Virus record (IMG/VR): IMGVR_UViG_3300042402_002579
Location: 1,937-65,936 of that record
Source: a virus
Taxonomy: Duplodnaviria; Caudoviricetes
DNA: 64,000 nucleotides
Strand: one strand, 5' to 3'
The notes under the pieces are model-generated. The model saw only the letters and a program-made list of their open reading frames with translations, searched no databases and was not told the origin of the DNA. This document shows positions 644 through 41,111 of this stretch, piece after piece (position 1 is the stretch's first letter; every line of letters begins with the position of its first letter). Position numbers and translations under genes: made by a program.

Positions 644-719
644 CGCGGGATGGAAAAGTTGGCATTTCGTCAGTCTCATAAGCTGAAGGTCGTCGGTTCG
701 AATCCGGCTCCCGCAACCA
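644..719 (+). tRNA. tRNA-Met(CAT), initiator (fMet)-like
   Basis: Full cloverleaf: CGCGGGA/TCCCGCA acceptor with C1xA72 mismatch, anticodon loop CTCATAA, T-arm GTCGG-TTCGAAT-CCGGC, encoded CCA. Confidence 0.95.
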
Positions 720-726
720 ATACAAT

Positions 727-876
727 ATGAAACTATTTGAAGCAACAATTAGAGTTAATGGTAAAGAATTTAAGGATCGAGTAGGAGCCAACTCGGCAGA
801 GGAAGCACGTATGTTATTACAACAGCGTCACGGTCCTAGAGCTGTTCCATTTATTCCACACATGATTCCAAGTTAA
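727..876 (+). CDS. small hypothetical protein (49 aa, MKLFEATIRVNGKEF...)
   Basis: Read manually, not in the ORF track; fills the space between two tRNAs almost exactly. Confidence 0.6.
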   Translation: MKLFEATIRVNGKEFKDRVGANSAEEARMLLQQRHGPRAVPFIPHMIPS

Positions 877-879
877 TTT

Positions 880-956
880 CGGAGTGTGGCGCAGTCTGGT
901 AGCGCACCTGGTTTGGGACCAGGGGGTCCAAGGTTCGAATCCTTGTACTCCGACCA
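880..956 (+). tRNA. tRNA-Pro(TGG)
   Basis: CGGAGTG/TACTCCG acceptor, CCTGG-TTTGGGA-CCAGG anticodon arm, TTCGAAT T-loop, CCA end. Confidence 0.95.
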
Positions 957-975
957 ATTTTTATAAAAGGCAACA

Positions 976-1161
976 ATGACAAGAGAAGAAGATCAAGCAG
1001 CAACAGATGCAGCAGTAGCAGAATTTCTAGCCAACGGTGGAGTTGTACAACAACTAAAACCAAATCAGAGTGGAAGAGTCGAGGGCGAATCTTATTCTAT
1101 GTGGTCAAAGAAAAAACCTTCAACATCGCCTTTGGCCAAAGCGCCAGAAGACGATGAATAA
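976..1161 (+). CDS. small hypothetical phage protein
   Basis: 61-aa ORF with AAAGG SD, between tRNAs; contains an AEFLANGGVVQQL segment. Confidence 0.7.
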   Translation: MTREEDQAATDAAVAEFLANGGVVQQLKPNQSGRVEGESYSMWSKKKPSTSPLAKAPEDDE

Positions 1162-1175
1162 ATAGAAACAACAAT

Positions 1176-1249
1176 GCGGGGTTCGTATAGTGGTAATACC
1201 TCAGCCTTCCAAGCTGATGCGGAGAGTTCGATTCTCTTACCCCGCTCCA
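1176..1249 (+). tRNA. tRNA-Gly(TCC)
   Basis: GCGGGGT/ACCCCGC acceptor, TCAGC-CTTCCAA-GCTGA anticodon arm, TTCGATT T-loop, U73 discriminator, CCA. Confidence 0.95.
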
Positions 1250-7506: not shown

Positions 7507-8112
7507 ATGCCTAGTGTTTTTTTAGTTAGCGACACACACTTTGGACATACCGGAGTATGTCGTTTTACCCGTAACGATGGTGTTACTAAGTTACGTCCGT
7601 GGGATAGTCCTGAGGAAATGGACGAAGCCATGATCAAGGCCTGGAACGAACGAGTCAAACCTACAGACAAGGTCTATCACTTAGGTGACGTGGTTATCAA
7701 CCGTAAATCGTTAAAAACTCTTGCTCGCTTAAACGGTGACAAAGTGTTAATCCGTGGCAACCACGATATCTTCCGTGATGACGAGTATCGCGAATACTTT
7801 CGTGAATTGCGAGCTTATCACGTTATGAACGGTATGATTCTTAGCCATATTCCGTTACACAGTGACAGCTTGGGTCGTTTTGGTGTTAACATTCACGGAC
7901 ACACTCATGCAAATCGTGTGAAGCGGGCTCGTGGAGTTGATGCTAGAACTGGGGAAGTTTTATACAGCGATGAGAACGATGTTCGTTACCATTGCGTTTG
8001 CGTGGAACAGACTCCGGACTTTGCTCCCATCTTGTTTGAAGATGTCATCAAGAACATCGAAGCAGAAGGCGGCAGTATCGGATTTAGAAACGGTAACGGA
8101 CCTACAATGTAG
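7507..8112 (+). CDS. calcineurin-like metallophosphoesterase
   Basis: SDTHFGH, HLGD, GNHD and HGHTH motifs; AGGAGG SD. Confidence 0.92.
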   Translation: MPSVFLVSDTHFGHTGVCRFTRNDGVTKLRPWDSPEEMDEAMIKAWNERVKPTDKVYHLGDVVINRKSLKTLARLNGDKVLIRGNHDIFRDDEYREYFRELRAYHVMNGMILSHIPLHSDSLGRFGVNIHGHTHANRVKRARGVDARTGEVLYSDENDVRYHCVCVEQTPDFAPILFEDVIKNIEAEGGSIGFRNGNGPTM

Positions 8113-32516: not shown

Positions 32517-33481
32517 TTTGGTATTTTGCTGTCTGCCGAACTCACGCAACTAGGAGTAATACAGCGAGTAGGTTCCTTGAATAATTCAAAGCTGTCTAAT
32601 GTGCCTAATGGAACATCGTGACAACTGTAACTGCGTTTGACTTCATTGCCTCTTATTATAACACTTTGATATCCAGCATTGCAAGACCAGTTAGTGAATT
32701 TATTGAAACCAAATGCATTAAATCTTTCAGCCTGATCAAATAAGTGTTCAGTACCGTCTGCTTCGTACAGAGCAATTTGATAAGCATCTTCACCGTTAGC
32801 ACGTTGCGGAAATCCCGTCTGCATCTTGTTTATCATATCTTCAGTATAGCCCGCAACAACTGCACTCGCCGTTGGATTGCTTTGCGGCTTCAATGTAACA
32901 TTAATGCCTCGTTCGTGGAAACGTTCCATTCGGTCATACAGTTCATAAAACTTTTCTGGCACCATTACTTGATTGATTGTAACGTGTACCAGTTCATATT
33001 GTAACTGTAGGCACTTATCGCCAAACTCTTGTTCCTTGGCAAACTCGTCGTGGAAACTGGCAGTAATACTCCTACGCTGTAATAATGCAGTATTGGCACA
33101 CCAAGTGTTCCACCATTTGCTACCTGGACTCAGATTGGTTGTCATATGAATACTTTGGTAAGGACTTTCGGTTTCGTCCAGGTGTTTTATTAATTCTGGT
33201 AACTGTTTGTATGCAGTAGGTTCACCGCCGCTGAACGACCAATGGAACTGGTTAAATCCGTTGGCTCGTGCTTGACGCTTAATTTCGTTTACTGTAGATT
33301 TATATACTTCAAGTGATTGGTGATCCAATTTGTCACTGCGAGCATAAGGCCAACAGTAGCTACAATTATAATTACAAAATCTGCCTAGAATCCAACTGGT
33401 AGAAAATAATGGATTGGCTAGCATAGTACGTTGTCCAAAACGCACAATGTGTTCGAATGGAATTGATTTAAAATTTTGCAT
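32507..33481 (-). CDS. radical SAM protein with twitch domain (paralogue of 25861..26778)
   Basis: CNYNCSYC, GGEP, TTN, WSCNAG...C...CVSSAD. Confidence 0.9.
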   Translation of the reverse strand: MQNFKSIPFEHIVRFGQRTMLANPLFSTSWILGRFCNYNCSYCWPYARSDKLDHQSLEVYKSTVNEIKRQARANGFNQFHWSFSGGEPTAYKQLPELIKHLDETESPYQSIHMTTNLSPGSKWWNTWCANTALLQRRSITASFHDEFAKEQEFGDKCLQLQYELVHVTINQVMVPEKFYELYDRMERFHERGINVTLKPQSNPTASAVVAGYTEDMINKMQTGFPQRANGEDAYQIALYEADGTEHLFDQAERFNAFGFNKFTNWSCNAGYQSVIIRGNEVKRSYSCHDVPLGTLDSFELFKEPTRCITPSCVSSADSKIPKCK

Positions 33482-33512
33482 AATAACGGTAAGTATTTAA
33501 CTGCTAGATCAG

Positions 33513-33540
33513 TTGACATAACTAGATTAGATAGTATAAT
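33513..33540 (+). promoter_or_regulatory. sigma70-type promoter
   Basis: TTGACA-16 nt-TATAAT, with both hexamers matching consensus. Confidence 0.8.
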
Positions 33541-33546
33541 ATACAT

Positions 33547-33657
33547 ATGGTCGTGAGTGGAATAGGCAGACCTCCCGCTAGTCCTATAGACTAGAGTGGG
33601 GACGGGGCAAAGTCGTAGACAGCGCCTTTGTAGGTTCGAAACCTACCGACCATACCA
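33547..33657 (+). ncRNA. non-canonical tRNA-like RNA (111 nt)
   Basis: 7-bp acceptor ATGGTCG/CGACCAT + A + CCA; T-arm GTAGG-TTCGAAA-CCTAC; Leu-like D loop; elongated anticodon-position hairpin and large variable arm. Confidence 0.8.
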
Positions 33658-33720
33658 GTTTTAAGCACCTGCAAGCAAGGGGGCTTATAAGTATTAGAAC
33701 ATAACTATAAGGAAACAATT

Positions 33721-33912
33721 ATGTCAACAACAGTAGAACAACTAAAAGCAGACTTTGAAGCATTCTTGGCAGAGGATGCAAAATTCACAGCTGGCAACGG
33801 TGCAGCAGGAACTCGTGCTCGCAAAGCTCTTCAAGAAGTTGCCAAGGGTGTTAAAGCTCGTCGCAACGAAATCACAGAAGAAAAGAACGCTCGCAAAGAA
33901 GCCAAGGTCTAA
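33721..33912 (+). CDS. histone H1-like (Hc1-family) small basic protein
   Basis: KF..GN.AAGTRARKALQE...R pattern; AAGGA SD. Confidence 0.75.
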   Translation: MSTTVEQLKADFEAFLAEDAKFTAGNGAAGTRARKALQEVAKGVKARRNEITEEKNARKEAKV

Positions 33913-33914
33913 AT

Positions 33915-34427
33915 ATGGACGACAAGGACAGTATCACACTTGATGATATTGAAATTGATCTAAGCAACTATGGTGCTGCCCAATCCAGCACCATGATTGA
34001 TACAATCACAATCACTGGTTTATCAGATCAATATTCTAGTATGAATACTATAACACTGCCCAGTAGTAACACCTTTACTTACGGAAGTGGTGCAACGGTA
34101 GGCGGCATCACTACTATTGGTAATATTAACAGTAATAGTACTTGGGCTACTGGAAATAGCGGATATACTATAAGCAACGGTAACTGGAACACTCCTAATA
34201 CTGTTAGTATCAATAACACTGGCATTGATATGGCAGAGGGCACTGATATTAAAATTGATGGACAGAGTCTAAAAGAGTTCATGAAAAAAATGGAACAGAG
34301 ATTGGCCATCCTAGTGCCTGATCCAAAGAAACTTGAAAAGTTTGAAGCACTTAAAAAAGCCTACGAGCATTATAAGACTATGGAAAGTCTTTGTTTTGAT
34401 GAACCAATCGAAGAACCTGAGCAGTAA
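33915..34427 (+). CDS. hypothetical protein with T/S/N/G-rich low-complexity core
   Basis: 170-aa ORF; C-terminal RLAILVP...LKKAYEHY helices. Confidence 0.75.
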   Translation: MDDKDSITLDDIEIDLSNYGAAQSSTMIDTITITGLSDQYSSMNTITLPSSNTFTYGSGATVGGITTIGNINSNSTWATGNSGYTISNGNWNTPNTVSINNTGIDMAEGTDIKIDGQSLKEFMKKMEQRLAILVPDPKKLEKFEALKKAYEHYKTMESLCFDEPIEEPEQ

Positions 34428-35496: not shown

Positions 35497-35525
35497 TTGA
35501 CATATTTCTAGAAAGATTGTATAAT
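35497..35525 (+). promoter_or_regulatory. sigma70-type promoter
   Basis: TTGACA-17 nt-TATAAT; ATG lies 7 nt downstream. Confidence 0.8.
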
Positions 35526-35532
35526 TACTATT

Positions 35533-36369
35533 ATGGCACAACACACAAACTACTGGAGTTGCACTCCCTTTGCTGATTGGATTCGCGGCACACCTAAGAA
35601 GGGTGCGTTGACCTCAGACGGATGGGCCGAATGGGAAGATGAAGCCAAACGCTATCATCCTGTCCGTTATTGGTTAGCTGAAGAAGGCCTGAGCTACATC
35701 CAAGATTTTGTTACCTGGCCCGTTAGAAAGATCTATGACGTTAAGTATTACATCAATAATCGTTGGGTTAGTCGTACTCACTCTCTTACCGCTCATACTC
35801 GTGACATCAAGCCTGGTGCTTGGTGCGATGTTGGCAATCGGTTCCTGCCATGCCTATTTAATGAGTTGGTGGATTTCGTCGAAATCGAATCCGCTTGGTC
35901 GCACATCGCTTGGGGAGATAAAGAAGCTCGTGCTAAGTATAACCCTCCCTTTTGGGCTAGCGGTTGGTTCCGTTGGCGTACTTGGCGTTGTCCTCAAGCA
36001 GGTATTGATCATTTAGATTGGGCTATGACTCTGACTAACACTGACTGGTGTGAACCAGACGATCCTGAATACGGAAAGCCAACTGGACAGGCTCTTCGTG
36101 CGAAAGAGATCAAAGAACTTTATCTATGGTGGACTGTGACCTATCGTAATCGCCCGGATCCTTATGAGGTCAGCGGTTGGAACGAGTATTGTGAAAAGGC
36201 TCGAGAACTTAACAATGGAAGATTGTTTGGTAGTAAGAGTACCCCTGAGCTTAAAAAACTAAGCAACAAGTCACACAAGCTACTTCAAAAGATCGAAGCG
36301 GCATACGAAAAAGAAGATGAAGCTATGATGATTCGTCTTATCAAAGCTCGAGACAGTCTATGGACTTAA
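35533..36369 (+). CDS. Trp-rich hypothetical phage protein
   Basis: 278-aa ORF ending in ...MIRLIKARDSLWT. Confidence 0.8.
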   Translation: MAQHTNYWSCTPFADWIRGTPKKGALTSDGWAEWEDEAKRYHPVRYWLAEEGLSYIQDFVTWPVRKIYDVKYYINNRWVSRTHSLTAHTRDIKPGAWCDVGNRFLPCLFNELVDFVEIESAWSHIAWGDKEARAKYNPPFWASGWFRWRTWRCPQAGIDHLDWAMTLTNTDWCEPDDPEYGKPTGQALRAKEIKELYLWWTVTYRNRPDPYEVSGWNEYCEKARELNNGRLFGSKSTPELKKLSNKSHKLLQKIEAAYEKEDEAMMIRLIKARDSLWT

Positions 36370-40462: not shown

Positions 40463-41097
40463 TGAACGAAGCTCTGGTGTTAGGAAACGGTGAAAGCCGA
40501 TATTCTGTAGATTTAAATTCGTTAAAAGATAATTTTGTGTTAATCGGCTGCAATGCAGTTCAAAGAGATATCACCGTTGATCATTTGATATGCTGTGACC
40601 AAAGAATGATTGTGGAATCTTTAAACAATCAATCAACAAAAGATTCTTTAATCTATGTACGTGCAATGTATTATAGACAGTATAGAAAATTACAAAAAGA
40701 AAAAAATGTAAGACTGCTTCCTGAAGTACCCACAACTGGTCAAAATAAAAGAGATGATCCCACTCATTGGGGTAGCGGACCGTATGCTGTATTACTGGCC
40801 AGCACTCTTGGATTTCAAAATATCACAATGTTAGGGTTTGACCTGTACGGAAATAAAGAAAAAGTAAATAACCTATATAAAAACACCCCAAATTATTCAA
40901 AAGGGGATACTAGAGCTGTAGATTACAGTTTCTGGCTATATCAAATTCAACAGATTTTTTTAACCTACCCCGAGACAAATTATAAAATAGTAAATATCGC
41001 CGATTGGGCAATGCCGGCCGAATGGAAAAGAAACAACATAACTTTTGAAAATATTGAGTCATTCAGAACCGCTAACAATCAGTTGACAGTTTTGTAA
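40462..41097 (+). CDS. Maf/MptE/sialyltransferase-like Rossmann-fold protein
   Basis: ALVLGNGESR, IGCN, DHLICCD, SGPYA...LGF...MLGFD. Confidence 0.6.
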   Translation: MNEALVLGNGESRYSVDLNSLKDNFVLIGCNAVQRDITVDHLICCDQRMIVESLNNQSTKDSLIYVRAMYYRQYRKLQKEKNVRLLPEVPTTGQNKRDDPTHWGSGPYAVLLASTLGFQNITMLGFDLYGNKEKVNNLYKNTPNYSKGDTRAVDYSFWLYQIQQIFLTYPETNYKIVNIADWAMPAEWKRNNITFENIESFRTANNQLTVL

Positions 41098-41111
41098 ATA
41101 CTGTGTATAAT
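41083..41111 (+). promoter_or_regulatory. sigma70-type promoter (TAAATA also present in the spacer)
   Basis: TTGACA-17 nt-TATAAT. Confidence 0.75.

What the first reader, a model, noticed from the sequence alone, without database searches (positions are those of the whole stretch)
33513..33690. Promoter-driven 111-nt tRNA-like RNA with intact acceptor/T/D elements but no canonical anticodon arm
Seen: perfect 7-bp acceptor stem, A discriminator, encoded CCA, canonical T-arm and a tRNA-Leu-like D region (GTGGAATAGGCAGAC). The anticodon arm is replaced by a ~11-bp bulged hairpin (TCCCGC-TAGTC/CTATA/GACTA-GA-GTGGGG) lacking U33 and a 7-nt loop. The variable arm is oversized (GGGGC...GTC-GTA-GAC...GCCTT). 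Its 5' end lies 6 nt after a TTGACA/TATAAT promoter, so it may need no RNase P processing, and another hairpin follows at ~33662-33688. Established: bacterial LeuRS relies on A73 and tRNA shape rather than the anticodon. Inference: an aminoacylatable, non-decoding tRNA mimic, for example a decoy for anticodon nucleases or toxins, an amino-acid donor for the adjacent enzyme island, or a regulator co-transcribed with the Hc1-like gene.
Basis: partly seen in the sequence, partly recalled or inferred. Interest (0 to 1): 0.82.

Follow-up and report, generated by a model that had tools for sequence, protein, structure and literature searches.

The report
Anticodon-less leucine-tRNA mimic of giant phages
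This uncultured giant lake phage carries a strongly promoted small RNA gene built like a leucine tRNA, but a closed hairpin replaces the codon-reading loop, so it probably acts as a tRNA look-alike outside translation, and its job is still unknown.

Summary
Window 33547-33657 (+) is a 111-nt tRNA-shaped RNA gene. Its first base lies 6 nt after a perfect TTGACA-16-TATAAT promoter. ARAGORN and Rfam do not call it.

It belongs to a large family. I collected 105 distinct variants of 95-119 nt from related IMG/VR contigs, and each of five long records held one copy. Acceptor and T stems pair in 99.6% and 100% of cells, with compensatory changes.

The anticodon arm is replaced by 71 different closed hairpins of 12-34 nt. 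None has a 5-bp stem with a 7-nt loop. The D loop, A73 and the elbow match the phages' own tRNA-Leu and the published E. coli LeuRS identity set.

Lake metatranscriptome contigs cover it in 3 of 4 runs. Gene context varies, so no tie to the neighbouring radical-SAM genes is supported.

Best reading: a trans-acting, non-decoding tRNA-Leu mimic, probably leucylated; its purpose is unknown.

Closest known are the T4 and T5 tRNA-like stable RNAs of unknown function. This scan reported the same family before on other DNA.

The downstream hairpin is weak and lineage-specific.

The parts
33513..33540 (+). Sigma-70-type promoter: TTGACA (33513-33518), 16-nt spacer, TATAAT (33535-33540)
   Evidence: 12 of 12 consensus match and one of three perfect matches in the window. 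In 93 distinct upstream regions of relatives, the hexamer at -12..-7 matches TATAAT at 5 of 6 or better in 86, and the best -35 has a 17-nt spacer in 82.
33547..33657 (+). The whole 111-nt tRNA-Leu-like RNA gene, base 1 to the encoded CCA
   Evidence: Covariance model R1 scores it 109 bits, E 3.9e-26. R1 found one such high-scoring match in each of the five phage records searched. RNA-library contigs cover 33549-33747 and 33555-33658.
33547..33553 (+). Acceptor stem, 5' strand (pairs with 33647-33653)
   Evidence: 99.6% of cells paired. Five of 7 pairs show compensatory changes, and there are 22 stem haplotypes.
33554..33573 (+). U8-G9 and the D arm: stem 33556-33558 with 33571-33573, and a 12-nt loop containing GG
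   Evidence: U8, A14, G18, G19 and two further loop A residues are invariant in 105 of 105. The loop matches the D loop of the related phage's own tRNA-Leu. The stem has only two firm pairs.
33574..33600 (+). Closed 27-nt hairpin in place of the anticodon arm (loop CUAUA)
   Evidence: MFE fold. The family holds 71 distinct arms of 12-34 nt, none with a 5-bp stem and 7-nt loop. The basal pairs covary. The distal part is swapped between near-identical bodies.
33604..33628 (+). Oversized two-tier variable arm (25 nt), followed by the U48-equivalent at 33629
   Evidence: 78 distinct arms of 17-28 nt with covarying apical stems. A 3-nt loop occurs in 96 of the 103 sequences that fold into two domains. 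The U before the T stem is invariant.
33630..33646 (+). T arm: GTAGG, TTCGAAA, CCTAC
   Evidence: 100% paired, and pair 50-64 changes U-A to C-G in 10 variants. Loop U54, U55, C56 and A58 are invariant (part of this set was found with a pattern that fixes these bases, but the 32 protein-anchored variants agree).
33647..33657 (+). Acceptor 3' strand (33647-33653), discriminator A73 (33654), CCA (33655-33657)
   Evidence: ACCA is invariant in 32 of 32 protein-anchored variants and in 105 of 105 overall.
33658..33720 (+). A/U-rich spacer before the Hc1-like gene (33721-33912); not part of the RNA family
   Evidence: The fold is not better than shuffles. A 41-nt piece (33658-33698) is absent from relatives' RNA contigs (table 5) and from most homologous loci. 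An RNA contig bridges 33549-33747.

Best explanation
This is a gene for a trans-acting, non-decoding mimic of a class II leucine tRNA.

Shown:
- A consensus host-type promoter sits at a fixed 6 nt before base 1.
- The RNA keeps the acceptor stem, D-loop/T-loop elbow, long variable arm, A73 and an encoded CCA under purifying and compensatory selection.
- The anticodon arm is a freely exchangeable closed hairpin, so it cannot read codons.
- It appears in lake RNA libraries.

Inferred:
- Host RNA polymerase starts at or next to base 1, so little or no RNase P trimming is needed.
- The 3' end is freed from the co-transcript (Hc1 here; a small secreted protein or a tRNA in relatives) by the host's normal tRNA 3' maturation.
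- The host LeuRS leucylates it. E. coli LeuRS needs A73 and the elbow, not the anticodon or the variable arm.
- It stays out of the ribosome, having no anticodon and a T stem predicted to bind EF-Tu weakly.

Its use is not known. I favour competition for, or supply to, a protein that handles the tRNA-Leu body and 3' end. My odds are about 0.9 that it is a working anticodon-less tRNA mimic and about 0.5 that it is leucylated. The confidence given is for the whole chain.
For: Family and structure:
- 105 distinct variants.
- The structure beats 500 of 500 shuffles on percent paired, on cells changed on both sides and on covariation score, and it beats all six slid registers on percent paired.
- Acceptor stem 99.6% paired, T stem 100% paired.

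Non-decoding:
- 103 of 105 fold into two adjacent hairpins between the D and T arms.
- The 71 distinct anticodon-position hairpins are capped by stable tetraloops and other short loops, with no 7-nt loop.
- ARAGORN of 1 in the window and 3 of 60 relatives, all as an odd 96-nt 'Pro-ggg'.

Leu origin:
- The D loop aligns with tRNA-Leu of related phage G001.
- After the element itself, R1's best hit in G001 is its tRNA-Leu(tag) at 37.8 bits, and in T5 its tRNA-Leu at 37.5 bits.

LeuRS identity set as listed in PMC9976931 (passages read): A73, A15:U48, G18G19, a D-loop A, G18:U55, G19:C56 and U54:A58. These are kept in 100-105 of 105.

EF-Tu:
- T-stem pairs G-C, U-A, A-U sum to +0.7 kcal/mol by Table 2 of PMC3239215. 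The two G001 tRNA-Leu give -0.6 and -0.1 (my arithmetic).
- U50-A64 and A51-U63 also occur in the Staphylococcus non-proteogenic tRNA-Gly (PMC7826273).

Expression:
- RNA contigs lie over the element in 3 of 4 runs, and none lie over 33435-33515 in 4 of 4.
- One contig spans 33555-33658, almost exactly the RNA. Variant family members are also present as RNA contigs.

Processing like a tRNA: in L203 it lies 13 nt before a tRNA-Ser inside a 21-tRNA array.
Against: - Nothing here shows charging, the exact ends or stability.
- The RNA runs are assembled contigs. They cannot give ends or exclude DNA carry-over, and one X19 contig of a relative runs 255 nt upstream through the promoter (table 7).
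- X21 has no cover on the element.
- The LeuRS rules come from E. coli and the host is unknown.
- Most of the conserved core bases are needed by any L-shaped tRNA, so they do not single out LeuRS.
- Invariance of the T arm and ACCA is partly forced, because 73 of the 105 variants came from a pattern that fixes those bases.
- The D stem has only two firm pairs.
- Five related records, one 94% complete, hold no LeuRS-class enzyme, CCA-adding enzyme, L/F-transferase or FemAB family. No phage partner is known.
- 18 of 80 radical-SAM-anchored loci lack the RNA beside that gene. At least one of those contigs carries it elsewhere (L120). Truncated copies exist (L122, L197).
Confidence: 0.45

Rival explanations
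1. An uncharged decoy or sponge. Made early from a strong host-type promoter, the RNA soaks up a host defence protein that attacks tRNAs through the body, the long variable arm or the CCA end rather than the anticodon. This spares the real tRNAs.
For: - The promoter is a perfect host-type consensus.
- These phages carry 27-33 tRNA genes, a trait linked in print to evasion of tRNA-targeting defence (PMC11555353, abstract in the search listing).
- Septu and retron-Eco7 cut the variable loop of class II tRNA-Tyr, and the authors suggest phage tRNA 'may act as a decoy or supplement' (PMC13096335, passages).
- The variable-arm triloop is semi-conserved (UUA in 50 of 103) and resembles the loop in the phage tRNA-Leu(tag).
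- The anticodon-position hairpin turns over fast between near-identical bodies (41 pairs), as in an arms race or under no constraint.
Against: - No defence system or host is identified.
- The variable arm (17-28 nt) is longer than in the phage's own tRNA-Leu, so it is not a close copy of a target.
- A single-copy gene would have to out-compete the whole tRNA pool.
- An invariant A73 and A15:U48 are not obviously needed for a decoy.
Confidence: 0.25
2. A cis-acting 5' module of an early operon. The tRNA shape serves only to stabilise the transcript, or to direct its processing, for the gene that follows.
For: - It always sits directly after a promoter.
- A ribosome-binding site and start codon were found in the 80 nt after it in 101 of 116 loci, starting 20-49 nt after CCA in 95.
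- The following gene is Hc1 in 41 of 92 loci, or a small secreted protein that begins within 150 nt in 46 loci.
- An RNA contig bridges the element and Hc1 (33549-33747).
Against: - The downstream gene is not constant, and in L203 it is a tRNA.
- A mere 5' stabiliser needs no invariant single-stranded ACCA, T-loop/D-loop elbow or A73.
- One RNA contig matches the element alone, 33555-33658.
- The spacer is not conserved.
Confidence: 0.1
3. An ordinary, intron-containing or otherwise unusual decoding tRNA that tRNA finders miss.
For: - RF00005 gives borderline scores to three relatives: 29.3, 28.4 and 26.4 bits against a cut-off of 29.
- ARAGORN of 60 relatives 'tRNA-Pro ggg'.
Against: - The arm is as short as a 4-bp stem with a CUUG tetraloop. 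The 71 variants share no loop triplet and none has a 7-nt loop.
- 12-34 nt leaves no room for a bacterial group I intron.
- The window copy fails Rfam even at E up to 10.
Confidence: 0.02
4. A decaying tRNA-Leu pseudogene without function.
For: Two degenerate copies exist: L122 is 5'-truncated (47.8 bits) and L197 is a 3' fragment (26.2 bits).
Against: - Compensatory changes occur in five helices across 105 variants.
- The promoter and its spacing are conserved.
- There is one intact copy in each of five long records.
- It is present in RNA libraries.
Confidence: 0.02

Closest known systems
Class II tRNA-Leu of bacteria and phages (within Rfam RF00005), including these phages' own tRNA-Leu genes
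   Same: 7-bp acceptor stem, A73, encoded CCA, the D-loop motif GGAAyTGGyAkA, the T loop TTCRA, a long variable arm and an A15:U48-type pair. tRNA-Leu is the best non-self hit of model R1.
   Different: There is no anticodon stem-loop. The variable arm is 17-28 nt in two tiers. The D stem is reduced to two firm pairs. It has its own promoter at +1 and lies 18-38 kb from the tRNA array in four records. It fails or only grazes the Rfam cut-off.
Phage T5 RNA1, RNA2 and RNA3 (annotated 'tRNA-like stable RNA with unknown functions' in AY543070), and phage T4 RNAC/RNAD
   Same: These are phage-encoded, tRNA-like, non-coding RNAs of 73-144 nt that lie among tRNA genes, with functions still unknown (PMC9697503 passages). 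T5 RNA1 also carries a Leu-type D-arm motif and a T arm (read). One relative of our RNA sits inside a tRNA array.
   Different: Homology is not detectable. R1 gives T5 RNA1 19.3 bits and RNA2 21.7 bits, below T5's real tRNA-Leu at 37.5. In my reading, T5 RNA1 does not end in CCA. I did not fetch or compare the T4 RNAs. Neither the T5 RNAs nor this family matched a non-tRNA Rfam family.
Non-proteogenic tRNA-Gly of Staphylococcus (glycyl donors for FemXAB/FmhB)
   Same: A tRNA kept out of translation that would carry an amino acid. The T-stem pairs U50-A64 and A51-U63 are shared and are predicted to bind EF-Tu weakly (PMC7826273 and PMC3239215 passages).
   Different: Those tRNAs keep an anticodon, which GlyRS needs, and have a known transferase partner. 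Here there is no anticodon, no FemAB or L/F-transferase family was found, and charging is untested.
tmRNA tRNA-like domain and YrlA/Y RNA tRNA-like modules
   Same: RNAs that mimic the acceptor-T half or the elbow of a tRNA without decoding through an anticodon.
   Different: - ARAGORN finds no tmRNA and there is no tag reading frame.
- Pair 3-70 is G-C or A-U in 102 of 105, not the alanine G.U.
- There is no Rfam tmRNA or YrlA match.
- The ends here form a true acceptor stem with ACCA, not a Ro-binding stem. The YrlA architecture is recalled, not tested.

Membership tests
Canonical tRNA (Rfam RF00005 / ARAGORN) | 7-bp acceptor stem, with the T arm and D loop forming the elbow | tested here: met
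   Acceptor 99.6% and T stem 100% paired, with compensatory changes. G18, G19, U54, U55 and C56 are invariant.
Canonical tRNA (Rfam RF00005 / ARAGORN) | 5-bp anticodon stem with a 7-nt loop (U33, anticodon, purine 37) | tested here: not met
   0 of 71 distinct arms. The window arm has 10 pairs and a 5-nt loop.
Canonical tRNA (Rfam RF00005 / ARAGORN) | Reaches the curated detection threshold | tested here: not met
   The window copy is absent at the gathering score and at E up to 10. ARAGORN does not call it. Relatives score 29.3, 28.4 and 26.4 bits against a cut-off of 29.
Class II tRNA-Leu as a LeuRS substrate (E. coli rules, PMC9976931) | Discriminator A73 | tested here: met
   A in 105 of 105 and in 32 of 32 variants found without a pattern that fixes it. 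The phage tRNA-Ser have G.
Class II tRNA-Leu as a LeuRS substrate (E. coli rules, PMC9976931) | Elbow and hinge elements: G18G19, a D-loop A after GGY, A15:U48, U54:A58, G18:U55, G19:C56 | tested here: met
   Present by sequence in 100-105 of 105. The rule is taken from passages read. The three-dimensional contacts themselves were not tested.
Class II tRNA-Leu as a LeuRS substrate (E. coli rules, PMC9976931) | Actual leucylation | not testable with these tools
   This needs an in vitro charging assay or acid-gel analysis in vivo.
Class II tRNA-Leu as a LeuRS substrate (E. coli rules, PMC9976931) | A leucine anticodon used in decoding | tested here: not met
   There is no anticodon loop.
Phage tRNA-like stable RNAs (T5 RNA1/RNA2/RNA3; T4 RNAC/RNAD) | Phage-encoded, tRNA-like, non-coding, associated with tRNA genes, function unknown | tested here: met
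   The element lies in phage contigs with 27-33 tRNAs and inside an array in L203.
Phage tRNA-like stable RNAs (T5 RNA1/RNA2/RNA3; T4 RNAC/RNAD) | Sequence or structure homology to the T5 RNAs | tested here: not met
   R1 gives 19.3 and 21.7 bits, below genuine T5 tRNAs. The T4 RNAs were not compared.
tmRNA | G3.U70 alanine identity, a tag reading frame, pseudoknots | tested here: not met
   ARAGORN finds no tmRNA. Pair 3-70 is GC 56, AU 46, GU 3. Rfam gives no match.
Non-proteogenic aminoacyl-donor tRNA (Staphylococcus tRNA-Gly type) | T stem that binds EF-Tu weakly | tested here: inconclusive
   A51-U63 occurs in 105 of 105 and U50-A64 in 95 of 105. The predicted sum is +0.7 kcal/mol from Table 2 of PMC3239215. 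This is a prediction only, and part of the set was found with a pattern that fixes these bases.
Non-proteogenic aminoacyl-donor tRNA (Staphylococcus tRNA-Gly type) | A dedicated aminoacyl-tRNA transferase partner | tested here: not met
   PF02388 (FemAB) and PF03588 (L/F-transferase) have 0 matches in 5 of 5 related records. Neighbouring proteins of unknown family match nothing relevant. Unknown or host enzymes are not excluded.

The most novel reading that the evidence does not exclude
The RNA is a dedicated, anticodon-less leucyl carrier. The host LeuRS charges it, and because it has no anticodon and binds EF-Tu weakly it escapes the ribosome. It then delivers leucine to a non-ribosomal acceptor through a phage or host transferase not yet recognised. 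This would be the first natural aminoacyl-carrier RNA that has shed its anticodon. It would also give a testable function for the class of phage tRNA-like stable RNAs, unexplained since T4 and T5.
Probability: 0.12. Interest if true: 0.9.

Novelty: new variant of a known kind. Interest (0 to 1): 0.6.

Why it matters
Phage tRNA-like stable RNAs have been known from T4 and T5 for decades without a function. The T5 record still annotates them 'unknown functions', and a 2022 T4 study still calls RNAC and RNAD 'of yet unknown functions' (PMC9697503).

This family offers a natural mutagenesis experiment with over a hundred variants. Selection keeps the acceptor end, A73, the elbow and a long variable arm. 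It discards the anticodon.

That narrows the possible partners to proteins that read the tRNA-Leu body and 3' end: LeuRS, end-modifying or end-cutting defence enzymes, or aminoacyl transferases. The question becomes directly testable with a charging assay and a defence-system panel.

The family is widespread in lake metagenomes and appears in metatranscriptome assemblies.

Tried and rejected
Detection tools. ARAGORN on the window found only three ordinary tRNAs at 644-1249. Rfam at gathering score, and at E up to 10 on 33400-33800, gave no relevant match; the snoRNA and MS2 hits are chance.

Cultured relatives. Searching the 'phages' collection with DNA gave only a 73.5% match of the Hc1 gene to Synechococcus phage S-SRM01, and nothing for 10 kb at high identity. 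S-SRM01 has no such RNA near its histone H1 gene (R1 11.3 bits, E 0.75). Protein searches gave only distant PA5oct-like and Campylobacter phage matches, so no cultured relative is at hand.

Structure prediction on raw alignments. RNAalifold on the first MAFFT alignment recovered only the acceptor stem, the T stem and part of the variable arm, because the variable arms were out of register. I therefore named the structure myself, built model R1 and also folded each sequence alone.

Partner enzymes. PF00133, PF01743, PF03588 and PF02388 each had 0 matches in the five related records searched. Pfam, NCBIfam and PHROGs on neighbouring proteins gave only radical SAM, Hc1, ThyX, an Asp/Asn hydroxylase-like domain, AdoMet decarboxylase and DctP.

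Downstream hairpin 33662-33688: rejected.

Splicing. The 33657-to-33699 'joint' in RNA contigs is a relative's shorter spacer with one other letter between, not an intron.

Homology to the T5 tRNA-like RNAs: rejected.

Host. One assembly titled 'Gammaproteobacteria bacterium' holds the RNA on a palindromic 14-kb contig. I treat this as a weak hint only.

X21 gave no cover on the element, and RNA contigs left 33435-33515 uncovered. Contigs cannot prove absence.

Literature. Five searches found no description of this family: with terms such as tRNA-like, bacteriophage, lacks an anticodon, anticodon-less, non-decoding tRNA, jumbo phage, tRNA mimic, decoy and acceptor stem. The library lacks most subscription journals.

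PMC10690425 reports 8,495 candidate structured RNAs from IMG/VR.

Not used: structure prediction, complex prediction, the protein-homology searches and the metagenome-contig scan.
Full report
WHAT IS THERE. Window 33547-33657 (+) reads as a tRNA-shaped RNA of 111 nt. Its parts are:
- acceptor stem ATGGTCG/CGACCAT;
- U8-G9;
- a D region, GTGGAATAGGCAGAC;
- a 27-nt hairpin where the anticodon arm should be;
- a 25-nt variable arm;
- T arm GTAGG-TTCGAAA-CCTAC;
- discriminator A and an encoded CCA.

A 12-of-12 TTGACA-16-TATAAT promoter ends 6 nt before base 1. Only three such perfect sites occur on both strands of the 64 kb window, at 33513, 35497 and 41083.

ARAGORN does not call the element. Rfam does not find it at gathering score, nor at E up to 10 on 33400-33800. 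The single-sequence fold is unremarkable (z -1.44), so the case for structure rests on comparison.

The window is most of a 65.9-kb IMG/VR record judged 19% complete. Related records reach 345 kb at 94% complete. No cultured relative was found.

A LARGE FAMILY WITH COMPENSATORY CHANGE. The neighbouring radical-SAM protein has 591 relatives in IMG/VR, and the best 80 loci were kept. The RNA lies beside that gene in 62 of them: 60 by blastn and 2 more by covariance model. Three of the 18 without it have under 600 nt of upstream flank.

Together they give 105 distinct sequences of 95-119 nt.

On the MAFFT alignment A3, with a structure I named, results were as follows:
- 89.1% of cells pair, against 81.7 +/- 0.3% in shuffles (0 of 500 reach it) and 34-52% when partners are slid by 1-3 columns.
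- 232 cells change on both sides, against 82 in shuffles.
- The acceptor stem pairs in 99.6% of cells and 5 of its 7 pairs show compensatory change.
- The T stem pairs in 100%, with 10 U-A to C-G exchanges at one pair.

The model-fitted alignment A5 (100 sequences) gives the same picture. There are 22 acceptor-stem haplotypes.

The D stem is the weak point. A10-U25 and G11-C24 never vary, and the third pair is U.C in 92 of 105.

Model R1 finds one copy in each of five long records at 93-109 bits. Everything else it finds is a genuine tRNA at 42 bits or less.

THE ANTICODON ARM IS GONE. When the stretch between the D and T arms is folded alone, 103 of 105 sequences form two adjacent hairpins.

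The first hairpin occurs in 71 distinct versions of 12-34 nt. The shortest is a 4-bp stem with a CUUG loop. Others are capped by UUCG, UUUG or GNRA-type tetraloops, or carry an internal UAGUA/GAA loop. None is a 5-bp stem with a 7-nt loop.

Its two basal pairs are conserved and covary. The distal part has 28% mean pairwise identity, against 77-94% for the other parts of the body and 59% for the variable-arm region. 41 pairs of RNAs that differ at 3 or fewer body positions carry different distal parts, up to 22 nt apart in length.

ARAGORN forces 3 of 60 relatives, the 96-nt forms, into 'tRNA-Pro ggg' and calls nothing in the other 57. An intron is excluded by size and by the tetraloop forms.

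The second hairpin, the variable arm, has 78 distinct versions of 17-28 nt. It has a G.U-rich base, an internal loop and a covarying 3-5-bp apical stem, with a 3-nt loop in 96 of 103.

IT DERIVES FROM tRNA-Leu AND KEEPS WHAT LeuRS READS. The 94%-complete relative G001 has 28 ARAGORN tRNAs, including two tRNA-Leu and two tRNA-Ser.
- The element's D loop aligns with the tRNA-Leu D loop.
- It shares A73 with Leu, whereas Ser has G73.
- The best non-self hit of R1 in G001 is tRNA-Leu(tag) at 37.8 bits. In phage T5 it is tRNA-Leu(UAG) at 37.5 bits.

Passages of the 2023 NAR review on tRNA identity (PMC9976931) make four points:
- E. coli LeuRS depends on A73, A15:U48, G18G19, a D-loop A and the D/T-loop tertiary pairs.
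- It does not depend on the anticodon or the long arm.
- The anticodon arm is needed for editing but not for aminoacylation.

In the family, U8, A14, G18, G19, the A after GGY, U48, U54, U55, C56, A58, A73 and CCA are each present in 105 of 105, and A15 in 100 of 105.

One caution applies. 73 of the 105 variants came from a pattern that fixes the T arm and ACCA. The 32 protein-anchored variants show the same invariance, and the D-loop bases were in no pattern used to collect the 105 variants.

The T stem is G-C, U-A (C-G in 10), A-U. It sums to +0.7 kcal/mol on the EF-Tu scale of PMC3239215, Table 2. The two G001 tRNA-Leu sum to -0.6 and -0.1; this is my arithmetic and an inference. The same U50-A64 and A51-U63 pairs are cited for the Staphylococcus non-proteogenic tRNA-Gly (PMC7826273).

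TRANSCRIPTION AND EXPRESSION. In 93 distinct upstream regions:
- the hexamer at -12..-7 relative to base 1 matches TATAAT at 5 of 6 or better in 86;
- the best -35 matches at 4 of 6 or better in 72;
- the spacer is 17 nt in 82.

Base 1 is G in 100 variants and A in 5. A start at or next to base 1 is therefore likely, but it is inferred.

Twenty-four public runs share words with 33300-34100, and 6 of them are on record as RNA. Four lake or freshwater metatranscriptome runs were laid as assembled contigs:
- The element is covered in X19, X20 and X22 but not in X21.
- 33435-33515 is uncovered in all four.
- X22 has a 104-nt contig at 33555-33658 with one differing letter.
- X20 has a 199-nt contig at 33549-33747 that runs on into Hc1.
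- Loose ends at 33612-33624 show that other family variants are present in the same RNA library.

Against this, contigs give no true ends or strand. DNA in RNA libraries cannot be excluded. One X19 contig of a relative continues 255 nt upstream through the promoter.

CONTEXT DOES NOT POINT TO A PARTNER. 92 pattern-found loci have at least 1.3 kb upstream and 0.3 kb downstream. They divide as follows:

| Neighbours | Loci |
|---|---|
| Radical-SAM gene upstream and Hc1 downstream | 28 |
| Radical-SAM gene only | 29 |
| Hc1 only | 13 |
| Neither | 22 |

In 46 loci a gene for a small signal-peptide protein of about 100-113 aa, with an HExxH-like motif, begins within 150 nt after the CCA, usually 23-33 nt after it.

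In G001 the upstream gene is an AdoMet decarboxylase on the same strand.

In the one prokaryote-assembly hit, whose record is titled 'Gammaproteobacteria bacterium', the RNA keeps its own promoter. It sits 13 nt before a tRNA-Ser inside an array of 21 tRNAs. That contig is a palindromic assembly product.

The constant unit is therefore promoter plus RNA at the head of a transcript, followed by whatever comes next.

The five related records searched hold no class-Ia synthetase domain, CCA-adding enzyme, L/F-transferase or FemAB family.

HOW IT MOST LIKELY WORKS.

Shown: a conserved, structured, anticodon-less class II tRNA body with an ACCA end, behind a host-type promoter, and present in RNA libraries.

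Inferred: the host polymerase starts at base 1. The A/U-rich spacer is cut and trimmed back to CCA as for tRNAs with an encoded CCA. LeuRS charges the RNA. Without an anticodon, and with a weak EF-Tu stem, it stays outside translation.

My odds are 0.9 that it is a working non-decoding tRNA mimic and about 0.5 that it is leucylated.

For its purpose I rank the readings as follows:
- It competes for, or supplies, a protein that reads the tRNA-Leu body and end (best reading, 0.45 for the whole chain).
- It is an uncharged decoy for tRNA-directed defence that does not act through the anticodon (0.25). As precedent, Septu and retron-Eco7 cut the variable loop of class II tRNA-Tyr (PMC13096335).
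- It is a cis leader of the early operon (0.1).
- It is an odd decoding tRNA (0.02).
- It is a pseudogene (0.02).

COMPARISON AND NOVELTY. It works like a tRNA-Leu stripped to its synthetase-facing half. It is not a member of canonical tRNA, because the anticodon arm was tested and not met and the Rfam threshold is not met for the window copy.

The closest known kind is the phage tRNA-like stable RNA:
- T5 RNA1, RNA2 and RNA3 are annotated 'tRNA-like stable RNA with unknown functions'.
- T4 RNAC and RNAD are 'of yet unknown functions' (PMC9697503).
- T5 RNA1 even shows a Leu-type D-arm motif.
- R1 does not relate the T5 RNAs to this family (19-22 bits), and Rfam finds only tRNAs in that part of T5.

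Five literature searches found no description of this family. The closed supplements of PMC10690425 might list it as a candidate motif.

This scan has already reported the same family on other genomes, with the same reading: e1-6114426, e1-6119966, e1-6075893, e1-6075909, e1-6115244 and e1-5703150. I reached the reading before opening those notes. I took from them only the T5 lead, which I then checked.

I file it as a new variant of a known kind.

CAVEATS. The host is unknown. The LeuRS rules come from E. coli. All expression evidence comes from assembled contigs. Part of the invariance is forced by how the set was collected. Nothing here tests charging, stability or any partner.

Noticed in passing
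L085:2671-3006 (-) and 45 other loci, starting within 150 nt (usually 23-33 nt) after the RNA's CCA: A family of small proteins (about 100-113 aa) with a signal peptide and an HExxH-like motif follows the RNA directly in the clade that lacks Hc1 there. It has no Pfam or NCBIfam match and only a weak PHROG match of unknown function.
   Followed up: partly
L201:13287-13378 (-); L203:6324-6415 (+) and 7656-7747 (-): ARAGORN calls a 92-nt 'tRNA-Ile (tat)' with a long variable arm in two unrelated records of this phage group. A class II-like body with a UAU anticodon is unusual.
   Followed up: no
window 35497-35525 and 41083-41111: These are the only other perfect TTGACA-17-TATAAT promoters in the 64 kb window. 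One lies before the 278-aa gene at 35533 and one before the queD leader that another first-reader note (e1-6230304) describes.
   Followed up: no
L204:2502-2645 (-), phage T5 RNA1: The T5 'tRNA-like stable RNA with unknown functions' carries a Leu-type D-arm motif (GGAATTGGTAGAC) and a T arm, but by my reading has no CCA end. It may be an independent tRNA-Leu-derived mimic.
   Followed up: partly
L122:6074-6183 (-); L197:3045-3169 (-): Degenerate copies of the RNA. L122 lacks the 5' part and follows a terminator-like hairpin (47.8 bits). L197 keeps only the 3' end (26.2 bits).
   Followed up: partly
G006:C437 (L202/L203): The 14,070-nt contig of an assembly titled 'Gammaproteobacteria bacterium' holds the RNA twice, at mirror positions on opposite strands. 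The contig is an inverted-repeat assembly product. Its tRNA array with small ORFs looks phage-like.
   Followed up: partly
Anticodon-position hairpin of the Hc1-less clade, e.g. L028, L085, L005: A recurrent UAGUA ... GAAC internal loop sits under a covarying distal stem. From memory, it resembles a loop-E/sarcin-ricin-type motif. The window's own clade instead keeps a CYAUA loop.
   Followed up: no
G000:C1:54-2655 (window 644-1249 and the 1.9 kb before the window): The window's three tRNAs are the end of a larger array that runs off the start of the contig. R1 and the tRNA model hit further tRNAs at G000:C1:54-127, 967-1054 and 1257-1332.
   Followed up: no
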